Source of the DNA: a virus
Lineage: Duplodnaviria > Caudoviricetes
Virus record (IMG/VR): IMGVR_UViG_3300010163_000003
Coordinates: 1 to 64,000 of that record
Direction: 5' to 3' (one strand)
DNA: 64,000 nucleotides
A program made the translations under genes and the position numbers. The notes below the pieces were generated by a model. It saw only the letters and a list, made by a program, of their open reading frames with translations. It was not told where the DNA came from and did not search any database. Shown here in pieces: positions 2,047 through 29,324 of the stretch. Each line of letters begins with the position of its first letter. Positions within the stretch are counted from its first letter, which is position 1.

Positions 2047-4074
2047 ATGAGCATTCAAAGGACTGTAAGTAGGAACCCTGTTAGTGGCATTTCAAAAGCT
2101 ATTGATATGCTTGGCAGTAAAGAAGCCGCAAATCATGCGTGCGCTTATCGTATTCTTAATACAGGCATGATAAAGCTTACTGGCAAAGAAATCGTGCAAG
2201 CGGCAAAGGATTACCAGTTCATGCTGTCTCTCGGTGAAACGACCGAGTACACGATGGAGCAGGCTGTTCGCGTAGCTGAAATCGTAGGAGTTCCACAGAG
2301 CTTTATTGAGCGTGATGGTGGCCCCACTGAATTTGTCAGCAAACGCTATCGTTTCTTTGTTATGTCGGCGATAGCTGGAAGACCACATAAAGAACAGATA
2401 TCTATGGTTAAAAGTACTATGGATGAGCTAGAGTTTAGAGAAAATGGCATTTTCCTTCCGGCTGATAAGATAAGCGATTTCACCAACATCAAGAAAGCTG
2501 CAAATAGTTCTGCTGATGCTACAACCAGAGTGATAGATACTTCAGAGGACGGAATATCCCGAATGCTCATGGAACACGGGATTAACTCTGCAACACTCTT
2601 TGTTGGACAAGTAAGCTTTGATGAAACAGAACAGAATGCAATTGACGAAAAGAAACGTCGTTTGTTTACTGAAGGTTTTATCAATGAAGCTACTGGCAAA
2701 CATTATATGTTCAGTTTTCAATCTCCTTCATCGGTGCGTAAGGGTAATTTCACATTTGTTGAAGCTAATTCTTGGCGCGAAGTCGTATCTCTTTGGATAG
2801 AAATTAGTGGCTTACTCACCAAAGAAGAAATTGAAACCAAGACTCAGGAAGAGCTTCTTGATATCCTGTTGTCTAAGTCTGTTGGTCTTGCTAATGAAGA
2901 GCATGAAGTTGTAATTGCTAAATTGCTTGCAAGGCTTTCTACTCGCGGCTCTAATAGTTTCAGCCTTGACCGTAGGGCTGAAACTAAAGAGCAGAAAGAA
3001 GCTCTGACTTTCGTTAAAGGCATAAATGTATTCTATCCTAAGAAGGATATGAAAGTCAAGATTACTCGCGACTACTACACGTTTGGCGATGAAGATGGCG
3101 TTCTTAAGCTCATCACTGGCAAACAGCGTACAGTAACTCCGGGCGATGGACAGATGCTTGGAAGCTATAGACTCCATGCATATATTGCATTCATTCTCAA
3201 TCTCATTTCCTATACAGACTTCAAGCGCTTCTTGAAACTCTGGGAAGAAGCAAACGAAGATGATAGAAATGTTGAGGAAGGAAGCGAACTTGAGCGCCTT
3301 ATCCTTAAGATACCATGCATATTTCAGATAAGGCATGGTTCTAAGAAGGGCATTTGTGTTAGAACTAACCTCGAAAGAGTATCCAAGTATGACGCAATCG
3401 TTCCGCCTTCTGTTCGTAAGTTTGTAGAAGGTGAGTGGAAGAACTTCCCGCTCGAAATCTGCAACTGGATTAAGAAGACTCCTGCACAGCCCACAGTTAT
3501 GCTGAATAACCAATTTATCAGTGCTCTCGATATAGAGCCTGAGAATCTGCGTAAGGTTGCGGATTACTGGTTTGACATCATGAACAAATCTCTTACGTCA
3601 GAAACCGAAGCTATGAAGTTTCATAAGATGATTCGGGCTACTGATGAAGAGGATGAGCTTGATGAAGACCTCAGCAATAGCATGGTAAGCCATTGTATAT
3701 GGGCAAACTCTAAACTCATGCTTGATCGTCAGGTATGTAACTGGAGAAAAGACCAGTATACCAAAATAATTAACAACATGAGTATCGGACGTATAGGTGT
3801 ACCAGGAATCTATAGCTATATGGTATGTGACCCGCATGCGTTAGTAAACTTCTATCTTGAACTCAAAGACGAAGACAAGATGGAAGAACTTAAAGCTGGC
3901 GAGTACTACTATTGCGGTAAAGATAACTGCACAGCAGCCTTGTTTCGCTCTCCGCTAATTCATCCATTTGAAGTACAAAAAGTAACGTTGAAGTATCTCA
4001 GGGCATTCTTTGGCATTCAAGGCGCTATCATTTTTAACGTACATGATGGCAAGTGGGATGCAATGGGAGGAGCT
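2047..4074 (+). CDS. Single-subunit YonO-like (two-barrel, RdRP-related) DNA-dependent RNA polymerase, exon 1
   Basis: LFRSP motif; ends ...MGGA, and joined to exon 2 gives the catalytic GADFDGD; spliced product about 1252 aa. Confidence 0.8.
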
Positions 4075-4423
4075 AAGTAATATTGGCCCCATCAACAGTA
4101 ATGTTGTCCTGACCCAATAAACAGGAATTACTCCGTGAACCTAGAAATCTAGGGTGTGTAGTGTAAACTATGCTAACAGGGAAAGCTAAAAATGTATAAA
4201 TTCATGCTAACCTCTGTGCCAAGCTCTGTAAAGAGAAGGTGCATCGACTAACTGAAAGTACTTTGTTATTCGAGAAATACGATAGCACAGTCTTTCGAGA
4301 CCTATAAGGTGAAACTCCTTATGGGGTAGCGCGGAGCTTCTGCATATGGTAACAGTATGCAGAATGAAGATATAGTCAGATGAGTGAAGAGAAATCTGCG
4401 TTGCAAAAGCAATACACTCATTG
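4075..4423 (+). ncRNA. Group I intron (349 nt, no ORF) in RNA polymerase gene
   Basis: Exon ends in U (gct), intron ends in G; R element catcgacta 4242-4250; S element aagatatagtc 4367-4377; removal restores the frame. Confidence 0.88.
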
Positions 4424-6154
4424 GATTTTGACGGCGATATTTGTGCGATTGTACCAGAAGATACCGATATTGGTGCATTAATAGTGAATGCCGTTCGTGA
4501 TATTCCTTATGATATCTGGGAAGAAGCTCAAGTTGCTAAGAAAGTTAAATTCACTTATGACATGAAAGCATTGATTGAGCATCTCGTAAAGAACGCTAAA
4601 GTTGACCGTACTGGGCCTATAACTAATCATGCTATGAGGTCTAGCGAGATATCTAATCATTTTACTCAGATAGCTCGTACTTGCAGGAGAAACGGTATTG
4701 ATAATGTGTTCTTTAAAGAGCCTTGGTCATTCCCAGAAGTAGACGAGAAGTATGGCTGGTATGGTGATAAGTATCGCGGTCTTCTTTGGAAAGATAATAC
4801 CGGGAAACAGTTTATGACTGTACGTGGTATTGCAAAATGCAAGAAAGTAGGGGCTTTGTGGGTATGGGATAAAGGACCAGAAGCTTTTGTTGGCTGGAAA
4901 TCTGTCACGGAGATAGAAGAGGAAGCCAAAAAGTATATGGATAAAGTTAAAGTTCTTCGTCTGCTTCAAGGCCGTGAGATTGATGGAGCTAAGACTGGTG
5001 TATATGCCGAAGGGCCAGAAGGTCGGAATGACTTTACTGACGAAGTAAAAGTCATAACAACTCCGCATCAGATGCTTGCTCGTAGAGTAATCCTTAAGAA
5101 GGGCGAGTCTAAATCTGATAATCACAATTCCTTTGTTAGCTTTTCTCCCCTTGGCGACTTGTATGACTATGTACAGAGCCGTCGTCACGAGATAGAAGAT
5201 AAACTGGATAACGGCATAAACATGACACAATATCTCTTCACTTTGCTTACCAAAGATGAACTTCGCTGGTTTTACGCTAGATGGAATGTAACAAATCCTG
5301 AAACCAACGAAGTAAAAGATAAAAGCCTGCTTGAGATTATCGAAGACCACAAGAAAGTATATTCTCAAGCATGGGCTAATGCTCGTGAGCTTCCTGATGA
5401 AGACCGTATGACATTCGGGAAGAAGATTAAGGAAGAAGAGCACGAATGGTTGTTGAGCCTTACAAACTATACGAATACAACCAACAATAATCTTCCTCTT
5501 ACAGTAATTGCTACGGCTGCATATATAGTAGCTTATGACAAGAAGAATAACCAGAACACAGGTTTAGGTTATGGCTGGATTCTCGCCTCCACACTTCTTG
5601 ATGTATTTGCTCGTGGCAATAACAAGCGCCGTCTCGTAAGGCTTCCTCATAAGAACGTAGAATCTGCTGAAATCAAAGATGGCTGGTTGTACGTGAATGA
5701 GATGAAGCACATGAAAGTCAATAGCGTTGAAGGCCCAGTGGATGTAATCAATGTTAGTGGACAGAACTGTGCTATGCTTCAAAAGAAAGTAGATAATGCG
5801 GCTAGCACGGCTCCGTTTGTATTCCCAGGCGCAATAGACGCTAACGTTCTTTACAGTATAACCGCAAGCGGATTGGCTTATACTCAAGCGGAGAATGCGG
5901 TTAACTGGATTGATCTTGTGAGAGCCAATGGGGGTTACTTTGATATCATCATGAATAGCCAAAAACGTGTAGTTATGGTTATCAATGGTGAAGAAATTGG
6001 ATTCCCGATATTCAATTGTTCTCCCCTTCAGTCTCTGCACATGCTCAACAAGCGGGTTAAAGTTATGAATCTTGATAACCCGATTGATGATAAACTTGTT
6101 GCGTCTACCAAGACTGGTAAGAGCGTCAAAGACATCTGGGTTGCAATAGCGTAA
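4424..6154 (+). CDS. YonO-like RNA polymerase, exon 2
   Basis: Begins DFDGDICAIV; later EIDGAKTG motif of the RdRP/YonO family. Confidence 0.8.
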   Translation, partial: DFDGDICAIVPEDTDIGALIVNAVRDIPYDIWEEAQVAKKVKFTYDMKALIEHLVKNAKVDRTGPITNHAMRSSEISNHFTQIARTCRRNGIDNVFFKEPWSFPEVDEKYGWYGDKYRGLLWKDNTGKQFMTVRGIAKCKKVGALWVWDKGPEAFVGWKSVTEIEEEAKKYMDKVKVLRLLQGREIDGAKTGVYAEGPEGRNDFTDEVKVITTPHQMLARRVILKKGESKSDNHNSFVSFSPLGDLYDYVQSRRHEIEDKLDNGINMTQYLFTLLTKDELRWFYARWNVTNPETNEVKDKSLLEIIEDHKKVYSQAWANARELPDEDRMTFGKKIKEEEHEWLLSLTNYTNTTNNNLPLTVIATAAYIVAYDKKNNQNTGLGYGWILASTLLDVFARGNNKRRLVRLPHKNVESAEIKDGWLYVNEMKHMKVNSVEGPVDVINVSGQNCAMLQKKVDNAASTAPFVFPGAIDANVLYSITASGLAYTQAENAVNWIDLVRANGGYFDIIMNSQKRVVMVINGEEIGFPIFNCSPLQSLHMLNKRVKVMNLDNPIDDKLVASTKTGKSVKDIWVAIA

Positions 6155-14378: not shown

Positions 14379-14456
14379 CCAGGTTTAGCGCAGTTTGGCT
14401 AGCGTACATGCTTTGGGAGCATGGGGTCGTGAGTTCAAATCTCACAACCTGGACCA
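14379..14456 (+). tRNA. tRNA-Pro(UGG)
   Basis: Acceptor ccaggtt/aacctgg, anticodon arm catgc-tttggga-gcatg, T-arm gttcaaatc, CCA. Confidence 0.92.
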
Positions 14457-17862: not shown

Positions 17863-18000
17863 GTCGGTATAGCTTAAGGTAAAGCAATTGTTTATTTTTA
17901 AACAATATTGAAAGGATAATAATTCCAAAGGGCTTTCATATGTTTAACTTCATTGTATAATAAACAATGTCTAACAGTTCAATTCTGTTTACCGACACCA
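17863..18000 (+). ncRNA. tRNA-like RNA with 62-nt insertion in the anticodon loop
   Basis: Perfect acceptor gtcggta/taccgac+ACCA, D-arm, 10-bp anticodon stem, T-arm aacag-ttcaatt-ctgtt. Confidence 0.65.
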
Positions 18001-20950: not shown

Positions 20951-21490
20951 ATGGCTAGTTATCCAGGCGCACGTAGAATATGGAATAAACATAGCGAATT
21001 CGCTGGCAAAGCTGATGCTGACAAGGTTCAAAAAGAAATTGACCTTATTGCATCTCAAGACCCTAACGGCAAATGTACCGATGAAGGATTGGTAGACTAT
21101 GCAAGAAACAATCCTAACAGCGAATCTCATAACTGCTTCGAGTGGAACGACACAACTGCGGCAGAAAAATACAGATTACATCAAGCTGCTCGTATTAAAG
21201 TTTCCATCATAACTGTATACGACAAAACTGACAAAGATACTGAAAGCAGCGTCAATCAAAATACGAGCGTCCCAATTCAGGTAGTTACTAACCATGCTTT
21301 AAAGACACCAGGAGATGGGCATAAGAATATTGAATTCATTCTTCAGGACAAGAATGATTCAAAAGTTCTTGACGAACAAATGAAGCAAGCATGCATTCAG
21401 TTCATGGATAATTTTGAACGTAGATGGTGTCTTGCCCCATCATTCAATCAAGTATTCCCCAAACTACAAGCATTCGTAAACTCGTTATAA
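20951..21490 (+). CDS. Conserved phage protein (H.CFEW.D..AAEKYRLHQA motif), candidate accessory of the Cas7-like locus
   Basis: gaggag RBS; motif recognised by eye; sits immediately upstream of the pentamer array. Confidence 0.65.
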   Translation: MASYPGARRIWNKHSEFAGKADADKVQKEIDLIASQDPNGKCTDEGLVDYARNNPNSESHNCFEWNDTTAAEKYRLHQAARIKVSIITVYDKTDKDTESSVNQNTSVPIQVVTNHALKTPGDGHKNIEFILQDKNDSKVLDEQMKQACIQFMDNFERRWCLAPSFNQVFPKLQAFVNSL

Positions 21491-21530
21491 AAGTATGGGG
21501 CGCTAACGCGCCCCTACTGAATTATAAATT

Positions 21531-21791
21531 ACATGCCAAAATAGGCAATCTTAAATTATCATAGCACACGCTAACATATTATAATATAATACAAAAAATT
21601 AAATCAATAAGCGAGGTCATGACCTCAATACACCAAATGTTACGATAATAAGATTTCAACATAAACTACTTTATTGTAATTTATAATATTGATGTTCGTG
21701 GCTTCGCTTATTGATTTAATAATCAATAAATTTAGATCAAACTATCCTAAATGAAGCAAAAATATGATATTATATTATACCGTAAAATAGA
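21531..21791 (+). repeat. Pentamer (NYA-NN) array part 1: three modules (21531-21595, 21625-21685, 21732-21791), module 2 enclosed by a long stem
   Basis: A at every 5th base, e.g. tta ga|tca aa|cta tc|cta aa|tga ag|caa aa|ata tg|ata tt|ata tt|ata cc|gta aa|ata ga; stem 21598-21630/21687-21720 with G-U pairs. Confidence 0.85.
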
Positions 21792-21801
21792 GGATTTAAA
21801 T

Positions 21802-22011
21802 ATGGATGAAAACGAAAATGTAACTATTTGTTGTGATTGTCAATATTGTTGCGACAAATATAGTTTCCCATTACCAAATGATATACCCGAATTTAACGGA
21901 AATAATTTTCTTCTTAAAGCATATTGTTGTTGTATGGAAGATTGTGAGCTATACGGCAAACGTATTGATATGCTTGGGATTACTTCCTGTGAATATTTTA
22001 AAGAATTATAG
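21802..22011 (+). CDS. Small Cys-rich hypothetical protein inside the array
   Basis: gagg RBS before ATG 21802; CCDC.YCC, CCC..DC. Confidence 0.55.
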   Translation: MDENENVTICCDCQYCCDKYSFPLPNDIPEFNGNNFLLKAYCCCMEDCELYGKRIDMLGITSCEYFKEL

Positions 22012-22024
22012 GAGAGATAGTTAG

Positions 22025-22561
22025 TTGATATATAAAACAACAGTTTATATTCCAAGTGGAACGATTGAGAGAGTAAACAGTTTACTTTGTGCTCTTTCTT
22101 TTAAAGATCTTTCTGAAAAAGAAATTAGCAAATATAAGTTTAGAACCAACTCATGTGAAACTATTTTTAATGTGAAGTTCGAAGATAATAGCACATTAAC
22201 ATATGAATTATGTTCTGGCGATTCTAATTATTATGACAATGTTGTATGGAGAAGCGCTGATGGGATTGAAGAAACAATAGAATGTTCTTTCAGATTATTC
22301 AATGAGATAGAAATTGAAATCAATTCAAACAAATATATTGTTAATCTCATAGAAAATCCTCCTGAACATGGCAAAAAAAGATTAAACGTTACTGTGAATT
22401 GTTTAGCTACTTATAATAGTAGCATACTCGTTCCATATACTATGAATCTTGAAGAAGCTATACAATATGCTGAAAAACATATTGATGATATACCCCTTGG
22501 TTTATTGGAATATGTGTCAGACAGTGACAGTATCGATGAAGAAAATTGCAGTTTCGATTAA
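22025..22561 (+). CDS. Hypothetical protein inside the array
   Basis: ggag RBS, TTG start, 178 aa. Confidence 0.55.
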   Translation: MIYKTTVYIPSGTIERVNSLLCALSFKDLSEKEISKYKFRTNSCETIFNVKFEDNSTLTYELCSGDSNYYDNVVWRSADGIEETIECSFRLFNEIEIEINSNKYIVNLIENPPEHGKKRLNVTVNCLATYNSSILVPYTMNLEEAIQYAEKHIDDIPLGLLEYVSDSDSIDEENCSFD

Positions 22562-22607
22562 TAAGCTTTAGCTAGCTTTTAGCTAATTTTCTAGCTAAAA
22601 GCTAGCT

Positions 22608-23680
22608 TTATAGCTTCAAATATTGACTTAAGTATTGTAAGTCGATAAACGAGATTTAGTCTCAATACATGCTATACTATCATAATGTATAACACTATAT
22701 CACACGACAATATATAATATCTTAAGTCAATATTTGAAGCTATAAGTTTCAAAACAGGCCAAAATAGTCTAGCTTAGAATACTATCAGCGTACTATAGGA
22801 TATATTAAAACATTTTATGGTCTCAAATATTGACTTTAAGTCAATGACATCCTATTACAACCCATCTCAACTTAGCTTATAATAGCATAAAATAATATAT
22901 AGTAATATTATTACTTAAAGTCAATATTTGAGACCATAAAGGTCAGCAGATTACAAACTAAGCTTAATTTAGGGTAAATTAAAGTAGGACAATTTTAGCA
23001 TATGCTAGGATATTTTACTTTATGGTTTCAAATATTAGCTTTAAGCTAAAATACAAGCTATGCAATCCTAAAATAAATTAGCACAATCTATGCTATTATA
23101 TGACACTATAAAATATTTAGCTTAAGTCAATATTTGAAACCATAAATTTTTATGGTTTAAGACAAAACGCCATAAAATACGATAGCACATGTAATCATAT
23201 GCAACCATAGGACATGCTATCATAAGATATTTTACTTTATGGTTTCAAATATTGACTTAAGTTAATAACAGAAAAGAGATGTATAATAATGACTATATTA
23301 CTGACTTATCTGGTTTTTGTAATAAAAAATTCCCAGTTGAAAAACATTTTTATGTTAAAACTAATATTTAAGGTCATAAACCTTATCAGAATGTAATGTA
23401 ATCTATCGCATCTCATGACAACATATGGCACCTTAACATAATATAAAACAGTTTATGATCTTAAATATTAGTTTTAGCTAATAATAACAAACAAAAATAC
23501 TATATGATAAAACACTTCATTATAATTTAGACCAAAGTAAAAATAATACAAAGTATTTTATATGTAGACACCGCTACTTTTACAAAAGTAGCGGTGTGTG
23601 CTTATAAAAGCAAGCTTAAAGTAGGTCATTTAAAAATAGTTTAGCACATCCCACCTTAAGCTAATATAGCACATAATATC
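22608..23680 (+). repeat. Pentamer (NYA-NN) array part 2: nine modules separated by alternating-orientation ~26-bp repeats
   Basis: Modules 22662-22721, 22749-22814, 22842-22906, 22943-23019, 23053-23117, 23172-23236, 23383-23452, 23487-23562, 23611-23680; repeat consensus tttatggtYtcaaatattgacttaag. Confidence 0.9.
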
Positions 23681-23714: not shown

Positions 23715-24446
23715 ATGGCCACAAAAACTAAAGACGAAAACAACACTCCTATTGAAGAAAAGCTTACTCCGGGCACAGTTATCAAAATGAAACCCTTTGT
23801 TAAGGAACGACTTCAGGTAACTATTTGCAGCGATGACCACTGCGATCTTATTTTGAATAAGATGACACAAGAAGCTATTGAAGAAATCAAAAGCACACAA
23901 ACTAAGACGGCTAAGGGCACAAAGAAAGCGGTCAATATGTGGCAAAGGCTTATTGAGGGCCTGCATTGGATGGACAAGTATACTGGCCCGTATGTAGATG
24001 ATAAAGGCAAAATTCTGCATACAGAAGAAGCATACTATGACCTACTTAAAACCAATCGTATCGGTTACGATGCAAGTGGCATCAAGAAGGGTCTCTGCGA
24101 TGCGGCTGTTCGTGTACTTGGCGAATCTAAATCTACCATTATCAATGCCAATCTTCAGGTTATTCCTGAGAAGAGAAATCTCGTTCAGATTGAATTCAAC
24201 GAGAGTGATATTGATGAATCCGTAATCACTAACTGGAAAGGCTCTGCTTTCATTACCTATCGTACTATCCTGCGCGGATGGTCTAGTACATTTGCTGTAG
24301 AATATCTGCCAGATAATTTGTCTCGTGATCAGGTTATCGAGATGTTCCAGGCGATGGGATTTAGCGGCGGTCTTGGCGCACATCGTGTTGGGCTTAAAGG
24401 CGGCACTCATGGTAAATTCCATGTAGATAAGGTAATGCAACTCTAA
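23715..24446 (+). CDS. Stand-alone Cas7/RAMP-like RNA-binding protein (Vipr-like candidate), 243 aa
   Basis: ggagg RBS; internal IGYDASGIKKGLCDAA helix, YR..L.GW...F.VEY strand, C-terminal Gly-rich loop GFSGGLGAHR..LKGGTHGKFHV. Confidence 0.7.
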   Translation: MATKTKDENNTPIEEKLTPGTVIKMKPFVKERLQVTICSDDHCDLILNKMTQEAIEEIKSTQTKTAKGTKKAVNMWQRLIEGLHWMDKYTGPYVDDKGKILHTEEAYYDLLKTNRIGYDASGIKKGLCDAAVRVLGESKSTIINANLQVIPEKRNLVQIEFNESDIDESVITNWKGSAFITYRTILRGWSSTFAVEYLPDNLSRDQVIEMFQAMGFSGGLGAHRVGLKGGTHGKFHVDKVMQL

Positions 24447-27538: not shown

Positions 27539-28567
27539 AACGCTTCTGAGAAAAAGGCCATAGTTAAACGTGCATGTGAGATTATTTACTCTAACGAGGG
27601 TGACTATGGCTCTGTAAACAAGAATGACAATGGTGCTTTGTCAATAGGCAAAGTGCAATGGCACGCAGATAGAGCATTATCTCTTTTAAGAGATATCATT
27701 AAAGCTAACGAATCTCAAGCTAAGACAATCTTAGGGGATACTCTTTTTAATGAAATTAAAACTACTACCAGCAATTGGAGTAATCGTATAGTTAATACAA
27801 TCGAAGCAAACTGCATTACTAAATTACTCATAACAAGTGCCGGTAAAAAAGTACAGGATAAGCTTGCTGAGAAAGATGTAGAAAGCTATATTGATATTGG
27901 AATATCTTATGGTATTCAAGATCCCGATTCTCTTATCTACTTTGCTGATGGAATCAATCAATATGGTTCATATTCTAAAGTGTGGAAAAATATCGCTATT
28001 AAATCTGTACATAATGGTGATACGTTAGACTCTATACATGCCGCAGCATCTTCCATGGCAAGTCAGTATATCTCTAGACGTATTAAGACATATAACATCA
28101 TTAAAGGGCATAATACAGTAAGTAAATCTAATACCTACACTAAATATAAAGACTCAAATAAAGTAAAATACATACAAGGTTGGGTAAATACTCAATTATT
28201 AGGTACTAACTTTACAGCTTTAAGTGTAGATGGCGTTATAGGTCTTAAAACTAAAGCCGGGATTGTTAAGTGTTTACAACAGTGTTTAAATCATGAATTT
28301 AATGCCAATCTTGATGTGGATGGAATATTTGGTCGCATGACGCAAATAGCATGCCCTACGGTTACTACATATAAGTGCAATTCTGGAGATATAGTTCACA
28401 TCATACAATTTGCTTTATATTGTAACGATATAGAGATAGATAAGTTTGATTATTATTATGGCTCTAAAACTGCTAATGCTGTAGGGATATTTCAAAGACG
28501 TAACAATTTACCGATTACCGAACGAGTTGATGATACAGTCTTTAAGTCGCTATTCGATGGCTTTTAA
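27536..28567 (+). CDS. Putative endolysin: lysozyme-like N-terminal domain plus peptidoglycan-binding repeats
   Basis: NEGDYGSVN.NDNGALSIGK.QWH; L.VDG.IG..T and L.VDGIFG..T PG-binding motifs. Confidence 0.75.
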   Translation: MNASEKKAIVKRACEIIYSNEGDYGSVNKNDNGALSIGKVQWHADRALSLLRDIIKANESQAKTILGDTLFNEIKTTTSNWSNRIVNTIEANCITKLLITSAGKKVQDKLAEKDVESYIDIGISYGIQDPDSLIYFADGINQYGSYSKVWKNIAIKSVHNGDTLDSIHAAASSMASQYISRRIKTYNIIKGHNTVSKSNTYTKYKDSNKVKYIQGWVNTQLLGTNFTALSVDGVIGLKTKAGIVKCLQQCLNHEFNANLDVDGIFGRMTQIACPTVTTYKCNSGDIVHIIQFALYCNDIEIDKFDYYYGSKTANAVGIFQRRNNLPITERVDDTVFKSLFDGF

Positions 28568-28607: not shown

Positions 28608-29324
28608 ATGAAATTACAAGCGATGAACAAGAAAATTACTGACTATGGCTATGATTATGAAATTGAATATGGCAATCCTGAATTTCATGGTCATGTTAAA
28701 GGCGTTGAGCTTTGTGTAATAGATGCTAGAACTGGATATGTTACAGAAAATCATCTTCCTAATAGCGTTAAGGAAAATAGAGATGAAGTTCTTGACAAAA
28801 TCCTTAATGATGATAGCATTATTAAAGTTGTCAATAATGCTCTTATTGCAACTGAAAGTGGCGGATTAGTCCCAGAAGATATTTATATGCTTCCATATAT
28901 GGTGATAGACCATTCTTGTTTACAGCCTACAGCCAATTTTGTGAGCGTAGTACCAGAAACAATGTTAGATCCATCCGATTTGCAATATTGTATGGATATA
29001 GAAGTACTGTTCTGCTGCAATAATCTTAACAGATATATGACATTGCATCTTCAGTCTCATGCAACTCCTGTTATTGACTTAGTTTTATATGTGTTTAGCA
29101 GCGATAATGACGATCTTGATGAGTTCTTAAAGAACGCTACTGATATCAAACTTACGCCTACTGAAAATCATGAACATGCTGTTACATTAGATATGTACAA
29201 TGAATGCGGAGATAGATTTGATATTAAATTTCCATCTATCGATCATCTTGCAGATCGTATTACGTCAATACGTCTTTTAGACTGCAAACCGCTTACGACT
29301 TCAACTCCAGCTGAGGATGATTAA
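28608..29324 (+). CDS. Hypothetical protein
   Basis: gaggtg RBS. Confidence 0.6.
   Translation: MKLQAMNKKITDYGYDYEIEYGNPEFHGHVKGVELCVIDARTGYVTENHLPNSVKENRDEVLDKILNDDSIIKVVNNALIATESGGLVPEDIYMLPYMVIDHSCLQPTANFVSVVPETMLDPSDLQYCMDIEVLFCCNNLNRYMTLHLQSHATPVIDLVLYVFSSDNDDLDEFLKNATDIKLTPTENHEHAVTLDMYNECGDRFDIKFPSIDHLADRITSIRLLDCKPLTTSTPAEDD

What the first reader, a model, noticed from the sequence alone, without database searches (positions are those of the whole stretch)
23383..23452. Module 10 decodes (reverse complement) to DNA polymerase A motif C (FIVGHVHDEIIIE)
Seen: 14 perfectly phased pentamers with NN = tc at at at tc tc tg ac tg cc ac at aa gt. Their reverse complement is AC.TT.AT.GT.GG.CA.GT.CA.GA.GA.AT.AT.AT.GA., compatible with T-F-I-V-G-H-V-H-D-E-I-I-I-E. 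Established: hVHDEhhhE is catalytic motif C of family-A polymerases, and IVGHVHDE is the form I recall from Clostridia prophage polymerases. Two independent modules hitting the two most conserved motifs of one gene family, in opposite orientations, support the 2-of-3 gapped code. The opposite orientations also favour dsDNA rather than mRNA as the target (inference).
Basis: partly seen in the sequence, partly recalled or inferred. Interest (0 to 1): 0.95.

Follow-up and report, generated by a model that had tools for sequence, protein, structure and literature searches.

The report
VIPR guide RNA against rival-phage polymerase
This 70-base stretch of a 218-kb jumbo phage is one guide of a VIPR system (a CRISPR-related, RNA-guided DNA silencer first described in 2026). 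Its two-of-five-letter code spells the catalytic motif C of the DNA polymerase of rival gut prophages, but its constant letters are a-Y-A, not the published GGY.

Summary
The observation and the decoding are both confirmed. Positions 23383-23452 hold 14 phased pentamers with an invariant A at position 3. Read as reverse complement with one base skipped, 13 of the 14 variable dinucleotides match natural family-A polymerase genes encoding C-FIVGHVHDE(I/M)IIE-C. There are 8 exact IMG/VR hits, 0 for a reversed-order control, and 200 local shuffles reach at most 9/14.

Module 5 matches motif B (RQKGKVAELALGYQGG) of the same polymerase subfamily in more than 95 contigs.

The adjacent 243-aa gene folds as a Csm3/Cas7-like RAMP (Z about 10). 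Its G-loop region aligns to the Vipr protein of Escherichia phage SUSP1.

This is therefore a VIPR system (bioRxiv 10.64898/2026.04.26.720920 and .720927), which the scan has already found on other DNA. It is not a new kind.

Three things are new here. The constant triplet is a-Y-A instead of GGY, and the G-loop has GAHR where SUSP1 has GDWR. Inverted repeats bracket the guides. The carrier is a family of roughly 200-kb phages whose guides also match the SSB, prohead protease, capsid and Cro-like genes of Clostridia-type prophages.

Expression and silencing were not tested.

The parts
23383..23452 (+). Module 10 (my module J): a vrRNA-like guide tract of 14 pentamers (16 if 23380-23455 is counted). 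Positions 4-5 of 13 units are complementary to codon positions 2-1 of polA motif C (FIVGHVHDEIIIE).
23356..23381 (+). Left arm of the stem that encloses module 10.
   Evidence: arms 26 nt, 96% complementary; 28-bp stem, MFE -37.1 kcal/mol, z = -7.7
23451..23476 (+). Right arm of that stem. It is also a copy of the conserved 3' flank (TTTATGrTyTyAAATATTrr) that follows modules E, G, I and J, making it a candidate vrRNA tail.
22751..22810 (+). Module 5 (E): sense-strand guide whose NN pairs spell KGKVAELALGY, polA motif B. There is a 1-nt phase slip after unit 7.
   Evidence: homologous module in a related phage (L110:5174-5239 = KGKIAELALGYG)
22956..23037 (+). Module G: NN pairs match GNKGIACG of an Enc34/gp2.5-type ssDNA-binding protein gene that lies next to polA in the target phages.
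   Evidence: 19/20 over 10 units; homologous modules in L116 and L117 score 43.8 and 39.7 bits
23484..23539 (+). Module K: probable guide to a Cro/C1-type HTH regulator gene (NKLWKLLIDK).
   Evidence: 33.3 bits, borderline; homologous module L110_3355 scores 35.5 bits
21528..21799 (+). Modules A, B and C (21528-21603, 21622-88, 21729-99): the same pentamer format, targets not found.
22634..22729 (+). Module D: pentamer tract between arms 22608-32 and 22721-45, target not found.
22839..22904 (+). Module F: pentamer tract between arms 22814-41 and 22913-40, target not found.
23050..23115 (+). Module H: pentamer tract, target not found (0 exact IMG/VR hits).
23174..23239 (+). Module I: pentamer tract, target not found (0 exact IMG/VR hits).
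23608..23678 (+). Module L: pentamer tract just upstream of the vipr-like gene, target not found.
23715..24446 (+). vipr-like gene: a 243-aa stand-alone RAMP (Csm3/Cas7 fold) whose G-loop reads GAHR where SUSP1 Vipr reads GDWR.
20951..21490 (+). 179-aa gene (phrog_15946) found upstream of the array and vipr in all 9 related loci examined. Candidate accessory (vap-like) gene of unknown fold.

Best explanation
Module 10 is one guide (vrRNA) of a VIPR system carried by a 218-kb jumbo phage.

Shown here: the adjacent 243-aa protein has a Cas7/Csm3-like RAMP fold and aligns to SUSP1 Vipr. The array consists of about 12 tracts of 12-16 pentamers. Positions 4-5 of each pentamer, read with one target base skipped, match conserved coding sequence of rival temperate phages. 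The skipped base always falls on the codon wobble position, and matches occur on both strands.

Inferred from the published SUSP1 and P. fulva work: one Vipr protomer binds each pentamer and sequesters the constant triplet. It presents the NN pair, so the filament forms a gapped R-loop on double-stranded DNA and blocks transcription. Here that would act at the catalytic core of the rival's polA gene.

The local peculiarity is the constant triplet. It is a-Y-A (position 1 A53%/T23%, position 2 Y87%, position 3 A) instead of G-G-Y. In the G-loop, SUSP1's D177 and W178 (which read G1 and G2) are replaced by Ala and His, while R179 is kept.
For: Format: (988 pentamers in 10 phages give the a-Y-A logo).

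Decoding:
- 8 exact IMG/VR hits for module 10 and more than 95 for module 5, all in polA ORFs.
- The same polA proteins carry both motifs.
- Controls: 0 hits for the reversed order; shuffles reach at most 9/14 against 13/14 for the real string.

Generality:
- Related roughly 200-kb phages carry the same arrays next to the homologous gene.
- Their guides hit polA, an Enc34-type SSB, a ClpP prohead protease, the major capsid protein, a Cro/C1 HTH gene and an HExxH-HTH gene of five polA phages.
- At 34 bits or more, hits fall only in the two frames where the skipped base is the wobble base (7+7, against 0 in the other four frames; controls 0.0-0.3 per frame).

Protein:
- AF2 pLDDT 83.8.
- Foldseek E 3.7e-7, top 50 hits all Csm3/Cmr4/Cas7.
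- VIA Z 10.4 over about 150-160 residues.
- hhalign to SUSP1 Vipr gives probability 91.9%, E 7e-7.
- SUSP1 residue numbering checked.

Published mechanism.
Against: - The transcribed strand, the RNA ends and RNP formation are therefore inferred.
- The constant motif is not GGY or any published variant (YNNGG, NNNGG, YNNNG, NNNNG). Position 3 is a purine, whereas the published Y3 pocket excludes purines.
- Only 3-4 of the 12 window modules have an identified target.
- Similarity to SUSP1 Vipr covers only 55 C-terminal columns.
- No published vap family was recognised.
Confidence: 0.85

Rival explanations
1. Contiguous 3-of-5 code. In this clade pentamer position 1 is no longer held by the protein and instead pairs with the target's 'skipped' base. 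Each unit would then read three contiguous target bases, with only Y-A as the linker.
For: Removing Y-A gives real codons. Module 5 becomes AAA GGC AAA GTC GCT GAA CTA GCG CTA GGA TAT (KGKVAELALGY). Module 10 (reverse complement) becomes TTT ATT GTA GGC CAT GTT CAA GAC GAG ATC ATC ATT GAA. Position 1 agrees in purine/pyrimidine class with the targets' wobble base at 74 of 114 sites, against 60 expected (P = 0.005). The residue that reads G1 in SUSP1 (D177) is Ala here.
Against: Position 1 often gives a wrong or stop codon (TAA, TAG or TGA for Tyr/Cys; CAA for His). Exact matches of position 1 to the wobble base of known targets are at chance or below (0/17, 1/14, 2/14). The sites counted are not independent, and position 1 is A-rich. 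The published structure displaces all three constant bases.
Confidence: 0.1
2. The match to polA is chance or over-reading of AT-rich periodic DNA. On this view the tract is a promoter/operator or structural DNA element.
For: The variable dinucleotides have a biased vocabulary. The inter-module DNA holds promoter-like motifs and palindromes.
Against: 26 fixed bases are found 8 times, always in polA and in frame. The reversed control gives 0 hits and shuffles reach at most 9/14. A second module hits motif B of the same proteins, and a related phage carries the motif B module with synonymous changes. Sigma-70-like sites are not enriched (22 against 18 +/- 4.5).
Confidence: 0.01
3. The guides act on RNA (rival mRNA), as in type III CRISPR, and not on dsDNA.
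For: The protein's nearest solved folds are the RNA-targeting Csm3/Cmr4/Cas7-11. Published Vipr can pair with ssRNA.
Against: Sense-orientation guides cannot pair with mRNA, and 6 of the first 9 decoded module families are sense. Published ssRNA complexes are mostly incomplete, and silencing works on either DNA strand.
Confidence: 0.04

Closest known systems
Type II VIPR of Escherichia phage SUSP1 (Vipr + vap1 + vrRNAs; bioRxiv 10.64898/2026.04.26.720920 and .720927)
   Same: - A stand-alone RAMP gene flanked by non-coding arrays on its own strand.
- Guides of 9-16 pentamers, each a constant triplet plus a variable NN.
- A 1-nt skip in the target that falls on the codon wobble position, with targets on both strands.
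- Targets are rival phages/prophages.
- The G-loop region is homologous (hhalign probability 92%).

I re-found the SUSP1 GGT-NN arrays at 27887-27966 and 29162-29231 of KT454805.2.
   Different: - Constant triplet a-Y-A, not GGY.
- G-loop GAHR instead of GDWR.
- The protein is 243 aa against 195 aa, and there is no tblastn-level similarity.
- Guides are bracketed by alternating inverted repeats of 25-28 bp instead of a pseudoknotted tail.
- The conserved neighbour is a 179-aa protein of unknown fold, upstream of the array.
- The carrier is a 218-kb jumbo phage with its own multisubunit RNA polymerase.
Type III CRISPR-Cas backbone subunit Csm3/Cmr4 (Cas7)
   Same: RRM/RAMP fold, glycine-rich loop and an ASGIKKG motif at the place of GSSIKG. 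The protein is expected to bind one protomer per repeat unit of guide.
   Different: There is no CRISPR repeat-spacer array, and no cas genes were recognised beside it. The guide period is 5 nt, not 6. The guide:target register is 5:3, not 1:1.
CRISPR arrays of huge phages that target competing phages
   Same: A large phage carries RNA guides aimed at essential genes of rival phages.
   Different: The guides are hard-wired and codon-phased to conserved protein motifs, so synonymous variation in the target is tolerated. No adaptation genes were seen.

Membership tests
VIPR | Stand-alone RAMP (Vipr) protein with RRM core, G-loop and thumb, without other cas genes | tested here: met
   AF2 model pLDDT 83.8. 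Foldseek top 50 hits are all Csm3/Cmr4/Cas7, best E 3.7e-7. VIA Z 10.4, rmsd 3.5 A, 151 residues aligned. Neighbouring genes have no cas-type Pfam hits.
VIPR | Sequence homology to an experimentally studied Vipr (SUSP1) | tested here: met
   hhalign of the 33-sequence family profile against SUSP1 Vipr gives probability 91.9%, E 7.2e-7, over 55 columns covering the last strands, a helix and the G-loop. The N-terminal two thirds are not aligned.
VIPR | vrRNA tracts of about 9-16 pentamers made of a constant triplet and a hypervariable NN | tested here: met
   12 tracts of 12-16 units. Position 3 is invariant, position 2 is 83-87% Y, positions 4-5 are variable.
VIPR | Constant motif GGY (or the published variants YNNGG, NNNGG, YNNNG, NNNNG) | tested here: not met
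   The logo over 988 pentamers in 10 phages is a-Y-A. G is 14%, 4% and 0% at the three constant positions. Published variants are listed.
VIPR | 1-nt-skip rule: NN pairs match the target with every third base skipped | tested here: met
VIPR | Skipped base falls on the codon wobble position; targets lie on both strands | tested here: met
   All significant hits are in frames p0/m1 (7+7 against 0 in the other four frames). Both sense and antisense modules occur. Caveat: protein-level detection favours this register. The register-blind nucleotide search found the same register for the three additional hits.
VIPR | Natural targets are rival mobile elements | tested here: met
   Targets are polA, SSB, ClpP protease, major capsid protein, Cro/C1 HTH and an HExxH-HTH gene in IMG/VR proviruses G001-G005. 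The polA relatives are Clostridia and Streptococcus (pro)phages. The jumbo phage itself has no PolA.
VIPR | Conserved structured 3' tail capping the repeat tract | tested here: inconclusive
   A conserved 3' flank follows modules E, G, I and J (77% column identity), and a 28-bp stem encloses module 10. No pseudoknot was sought and the RNA ends are unknown.
VIPR | Accessory vap gene | tested here: inconclusive
   The 179-aa upstream gene is conserved in all 9 related loci, but it has no Pfam hit and no fold match. It was not compared with the published vap1-6.
VIPR | vrRNAs are expressed, co-purify with Vipr and silence dsDNA targets | not testable with these tools
This needs bench work.
CRISPR-Cas type III | CRISPR array of direct repeats with unique spacers, and 6-nt guide periodicity | tested here: not met
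   No direct-repeat array was found. The period is 5, and period-6 A runs are absent from the region.

The most novel reading that the evidence does not exclude
This jumbo-phage clade uses a re-wired VIPR code. The protein reads only Y-A, through a G-loop changed from GDWR to GAHR. The freed first base of each pentamer would then pair with the target's wobble base, giving a contiguous 3-of-5 code with no skipped target base.
Probability: 0.1. Interest if true: 0.75.

Novelty: new variant of a known kind. Interest (0 to 1): 0.6.

Why it matters
VIPR was described only in 2026, and its published rule rests on GGY-type repeats. This clade shows that the constant 'handle' can be replaced completely (a-Y-A, with no G) while the 1-nt-skip, wobble-phased reading of DNA is kept. 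It also points to the G-loop residues (D177A, W178H in SUSP1 numbering) as the likely switch, which is useful for engineering orthogonal VIPR tools.

The clade also shows what such guides are aimed at in nature. The targets include the catalytic motifs B and C of the rival's DNA polymerase, where two of three bases per codon cannot drift, so one hard-wired guide covers a broad range of Clostridia-type prophages.

Tried and rejected
1. My first idea, a contiguous target after deleting Y-A. Nucleotide searches of the de-spaced modules showed only E and J above controls, and wobble-base matches to known targets are at or below chance. I demoted it to a rival.
2. The same spaced modules in other IMG/VR contigs: 0 hits.
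3. Skip-rule patterns for modules I and H in IMG/VR: 0 exact hits each. Modules A-D, F and L gave no signal above shuffles in 1.15 Mb of target DNA.
4. Relatives of the 243-aa protein by back-translated patterns in IMG/VR and by tblastn against cultured phages: none. They were found only by the large protein search.
5. Rfam: no family in the array.
6. Tandem Repeats Finder does not report the array.
7. Own genome: no PolA or PolB Pfam match and no VHDE motif, so the guides are not self-directed.
8. The downstream 320-aa gene as a partner: not conserved.
9. Fold of the 179-aa partner: no PDB match at E <= 0.001.
10. Sigma-70 promoter scan: not above shuffles.
12. A more distant relative (L113, 44% identity) has the two genes adjacent, with no a-Y-A array in the 9.5 kb held.

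Full report
**The observation.** The window is the first 64 kb of a 218,431-bp IMG/VR phage genome with direct terminal repeats. At 23383-23452 the + strand reads as 14 pentamers, each with A at position 3, and the run extends to 16 units (23380-23455). A genome-wide scan finds period-5 runs only for A and only on the + strand. Nine or more runs of 12-16 units are packed into 21528-23678. Elsewhere there are only 7 runs of exactly 10 units, about the chance number. Within the window's tracts position 1 is A-biased (51%), position 2 is 83% pyrimidine, position 3 is always A, and positions 4-5 vary. The tracts are separated by copies of a 25-28 bp element in alternating orientation, so each tract can sit in the loop of a long stem. 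For module 10 the stem is 28 bp, MFE -37.1 kcal/mol, z = -7.7.

**The decoding.** It matches 8 IMG/VR contigs, where about 3e-5 would be expected by chance. Every match lies in frame in an ORF of about 660-680 aa that reads C-FIVGHVHDE(I/M)IIE-C. That ORF is a family-A DNA polymerase (PF00476, phrog_17).
- The same dinucleotides in reversed order give 0 hits.
- In 1.15 Mb of target DNA the real string reaches 13/14, while 200 order-shuffles never exceed 9/14.
- The first dinucleotide (AC) does not fit; natural genes have Cys there.

Module 5 (22751-22810), read on the sense strand, gives more than 95 hits, all RQKGKVAELALGYQGG. The polymerases hit by module 10 carry RQKGKIAELA(L/C)GYGG at motif B. 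Both modules therefore address one polymerase subfamily, in opposite orientations. Its nearest named relatives are phages and prophages of gut Clostridia (Ruminococcus, Lachnospiraceae, Oscillospiraceae, [Clostridium] innocuum) and Streptococcus prophages. Three of five target records examined are classed as proviruses. The jumbo phage itself has no PolA or PolB match.

**The protein.** The gene directly downstream (23715-24446, 243 aa) has no Pfam hit. It has 70 homologues in metagenomes, several on contigs of about 200 kb. An AlphaFold model built on 33 of them (pLDDT 83.8, pTM 0.78) matches only Csm3/Cmr4/Cas7-type RAMPs:
- Foldseek best E 3.7e-7, with all of the top 50 hits of this kind.
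- VIA Z 10.4-9, with 150-160 residues aligned over nearly the whole chain.
- The invariant ASGIKKG motif and the glycine-rich C-terminal loop are the RAMP hallmarks.

**Relatives.** Loci around nine homologues, drawn from ENA, Logan and JGI assemblies, carry the same Y-A-phased tracts next to the gene. Only the most distant locus examined (L113, 44% identity) has none in the DNA held. The feature is therefore natural and conserved. Pooled over 988 pentamers the logo is a-Y-A-N-N (position 1 A53/T23/G14/C10; position 2 T67/C20).

One relative has the motif B guide with synonymous and conservative changes (KGKIAELALGYG). Another guide in a relative reads GPKFVENVVQAV (natural GPKFVENIVQAI) just upstream of motif C. 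Against five complete or partial polA phages, guides from the clade also hit:
- an Enc34/gp2.5-type SSB gene (this includes window module G);
- a ClpP-type prohead protease (53.5 bits over 17 codons);
- the major capsid protein;
- a Cro/C1 HTH gene (this includes window module K, which is borderline);
- an HExxH-HTH protein.

Triplet-shuffled controls reached at most 32.8 bits in this search. At 34 bits or more, hits occur only in the two reading registers where the base between NN pairs is the codon wobble base: 7+7, against 0 in the other four registers, with controls 0.0-0.3 per register. A register-blind nucleotide search found the same register for the three additional hits.

**What it is.** They describe VIPR systems: a stand-alone RAMP (Vipr) and vrRNAs of 9-16 GGY/NN pentamers. 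One protomer binds each repeat and hides GGY. The NN pairs bind double-stranded DNA with every third target base skipped, and the skipped base falls on the wobble position. Targets lie on both strands and belong to rival phages, and the outcome is transcriptional silencing. Everything I derived independently fits this rule.

As a direct test I located the SUSP1 locus in KT454805.2, with GGT-NN arrays at 27887-27966 and 29162-29231 flanking a 195-aa gene. I then aligned my family profile to that protein: probability 91.9%, E 7e-7, over the C-terminal strands and G-loop.

**What differs.** The constant triplet is a-Y-A, with essentially no G. The published variants all keep G, and the published Y3 pocket excludes purines, whereas position 3 here is always A. 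In the alignment, SUSP1 G176-D177-W178-R179 lies opposite G221-A222-H223-R224. G221 and R224 are invariant in this clade, and A222 and H223 are at least 90% conserved. D177 reads G1, W178 stacks on G2 and R179 holds Y3. Loss of the Asp fits the degenerate position 1. This residue-to-base link is inference.

Other differences:
- The guides are bracketed by alternating inverted repeats. A conserved 3' flank follows modules E, G, I and J.
- The conserved neighbour is an upstream 179-aa protein (20951-21490), present in all nine relatives and without a recognisable fold.
- The carrier is a jumbo phage.

**An open point.** Deleting Y-A leaves real codons. Position 1 agrees in purine/pyrimidine class with the targets' wobble base more often than permutation predicts (74/114 against 60; P = 0.005, sites not independent). 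However, position 1 often yields stop or wrong codons, and it does not match the wobble bases of known targets. I therefore keep the published 2-of-5 reading as the main model and the 3-of-5 reading as a 10% rival.

**Limits.** No expression data could be obtained. The strand (assigned by analogy with SUSP1, where arrays and vipr share a strand), the RNA ends, RNP formation and silencing are all inferred. Eight of the twelve window modules remain without a target.

Noticed in passing
window 2047-6154: A large gene is split by a group I intron (Rfam RF00028, 52.3 bits, 4065-4401). The second exon ORF begins with LDFDGD, the catalytic motif of multisubunit RNA polymerase beta-prime, so the phage encodes its own RNAP, as phiKZ- and AR9-like jumbo phages do.
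   Followed up: partly
window 17863-17997: Rfam calls a tRNA (45.3 bits) spanning 135 nt that ARAGORN does not report. It may be an intron-containing tRNA. Three ordinary tRNAs lie at 14379, 19040 and 19194.
   Followed up: no
whole genome G000: No Pfam DNA_pol_A or DNA_pol_B match in six frames of the complete 218-kb genome. The replicative polymerase is either very divergent or absent.
   Followed up: partly
window 21802-22011: A 69-aa cysteine-rich ORF (CCDCQYCC...CCCMEDC) sits inside the guide array between modules C and D and is conserved (66% identity) in the closest relative, L114:4710-4910. The 178-aa ORF that follows (22025-22561) has no relatives in the loci held.
   Followed up: partly
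window 22806-22850, 23011-23055, 23228-23272, 23443-23487: All three firmly decoded window modules (E, G, J), and also undecoded module I, are followed by the same arm orientation (TTTATGGTyTCAAATATTGrCTTTAAG). Tracts D, F and H are followed by the opposite orientation and are all undecoded. Possibly only one class is a functional guide, or the two classes have different targets.
   Followed up: partly
window 23556-23609: A strong hairpin (ACACCGCTACTTTT / AAAAGTAGCGGTGT) lies between module K and module L, without a T-run. It may mark the end of a transcription unit for a phage RNAP.
   Followed up: no
L113:1-1932: In a more distant relative (Vipr homologue 44% identical, 310 aa), the partner gene and vipr are directly adjacent behind a tRNA cluster. 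No a-Y-A tract occurs in the 9.5 kb held, so its guides may lie elsewhere or use another handle.
   Followed up: partly
L134:12875-14758 (target phage G005): The 628-aa protein (phrog_4031; HExxH motif NNTIIHECVH plus a C-terminal Cro/C1 HTH) is targeted by guides of two related jumbo phages. It looks like an ImmA/IrrE-type protease-regulator of the lysis-lysogeny switch.
   Followed up: partly
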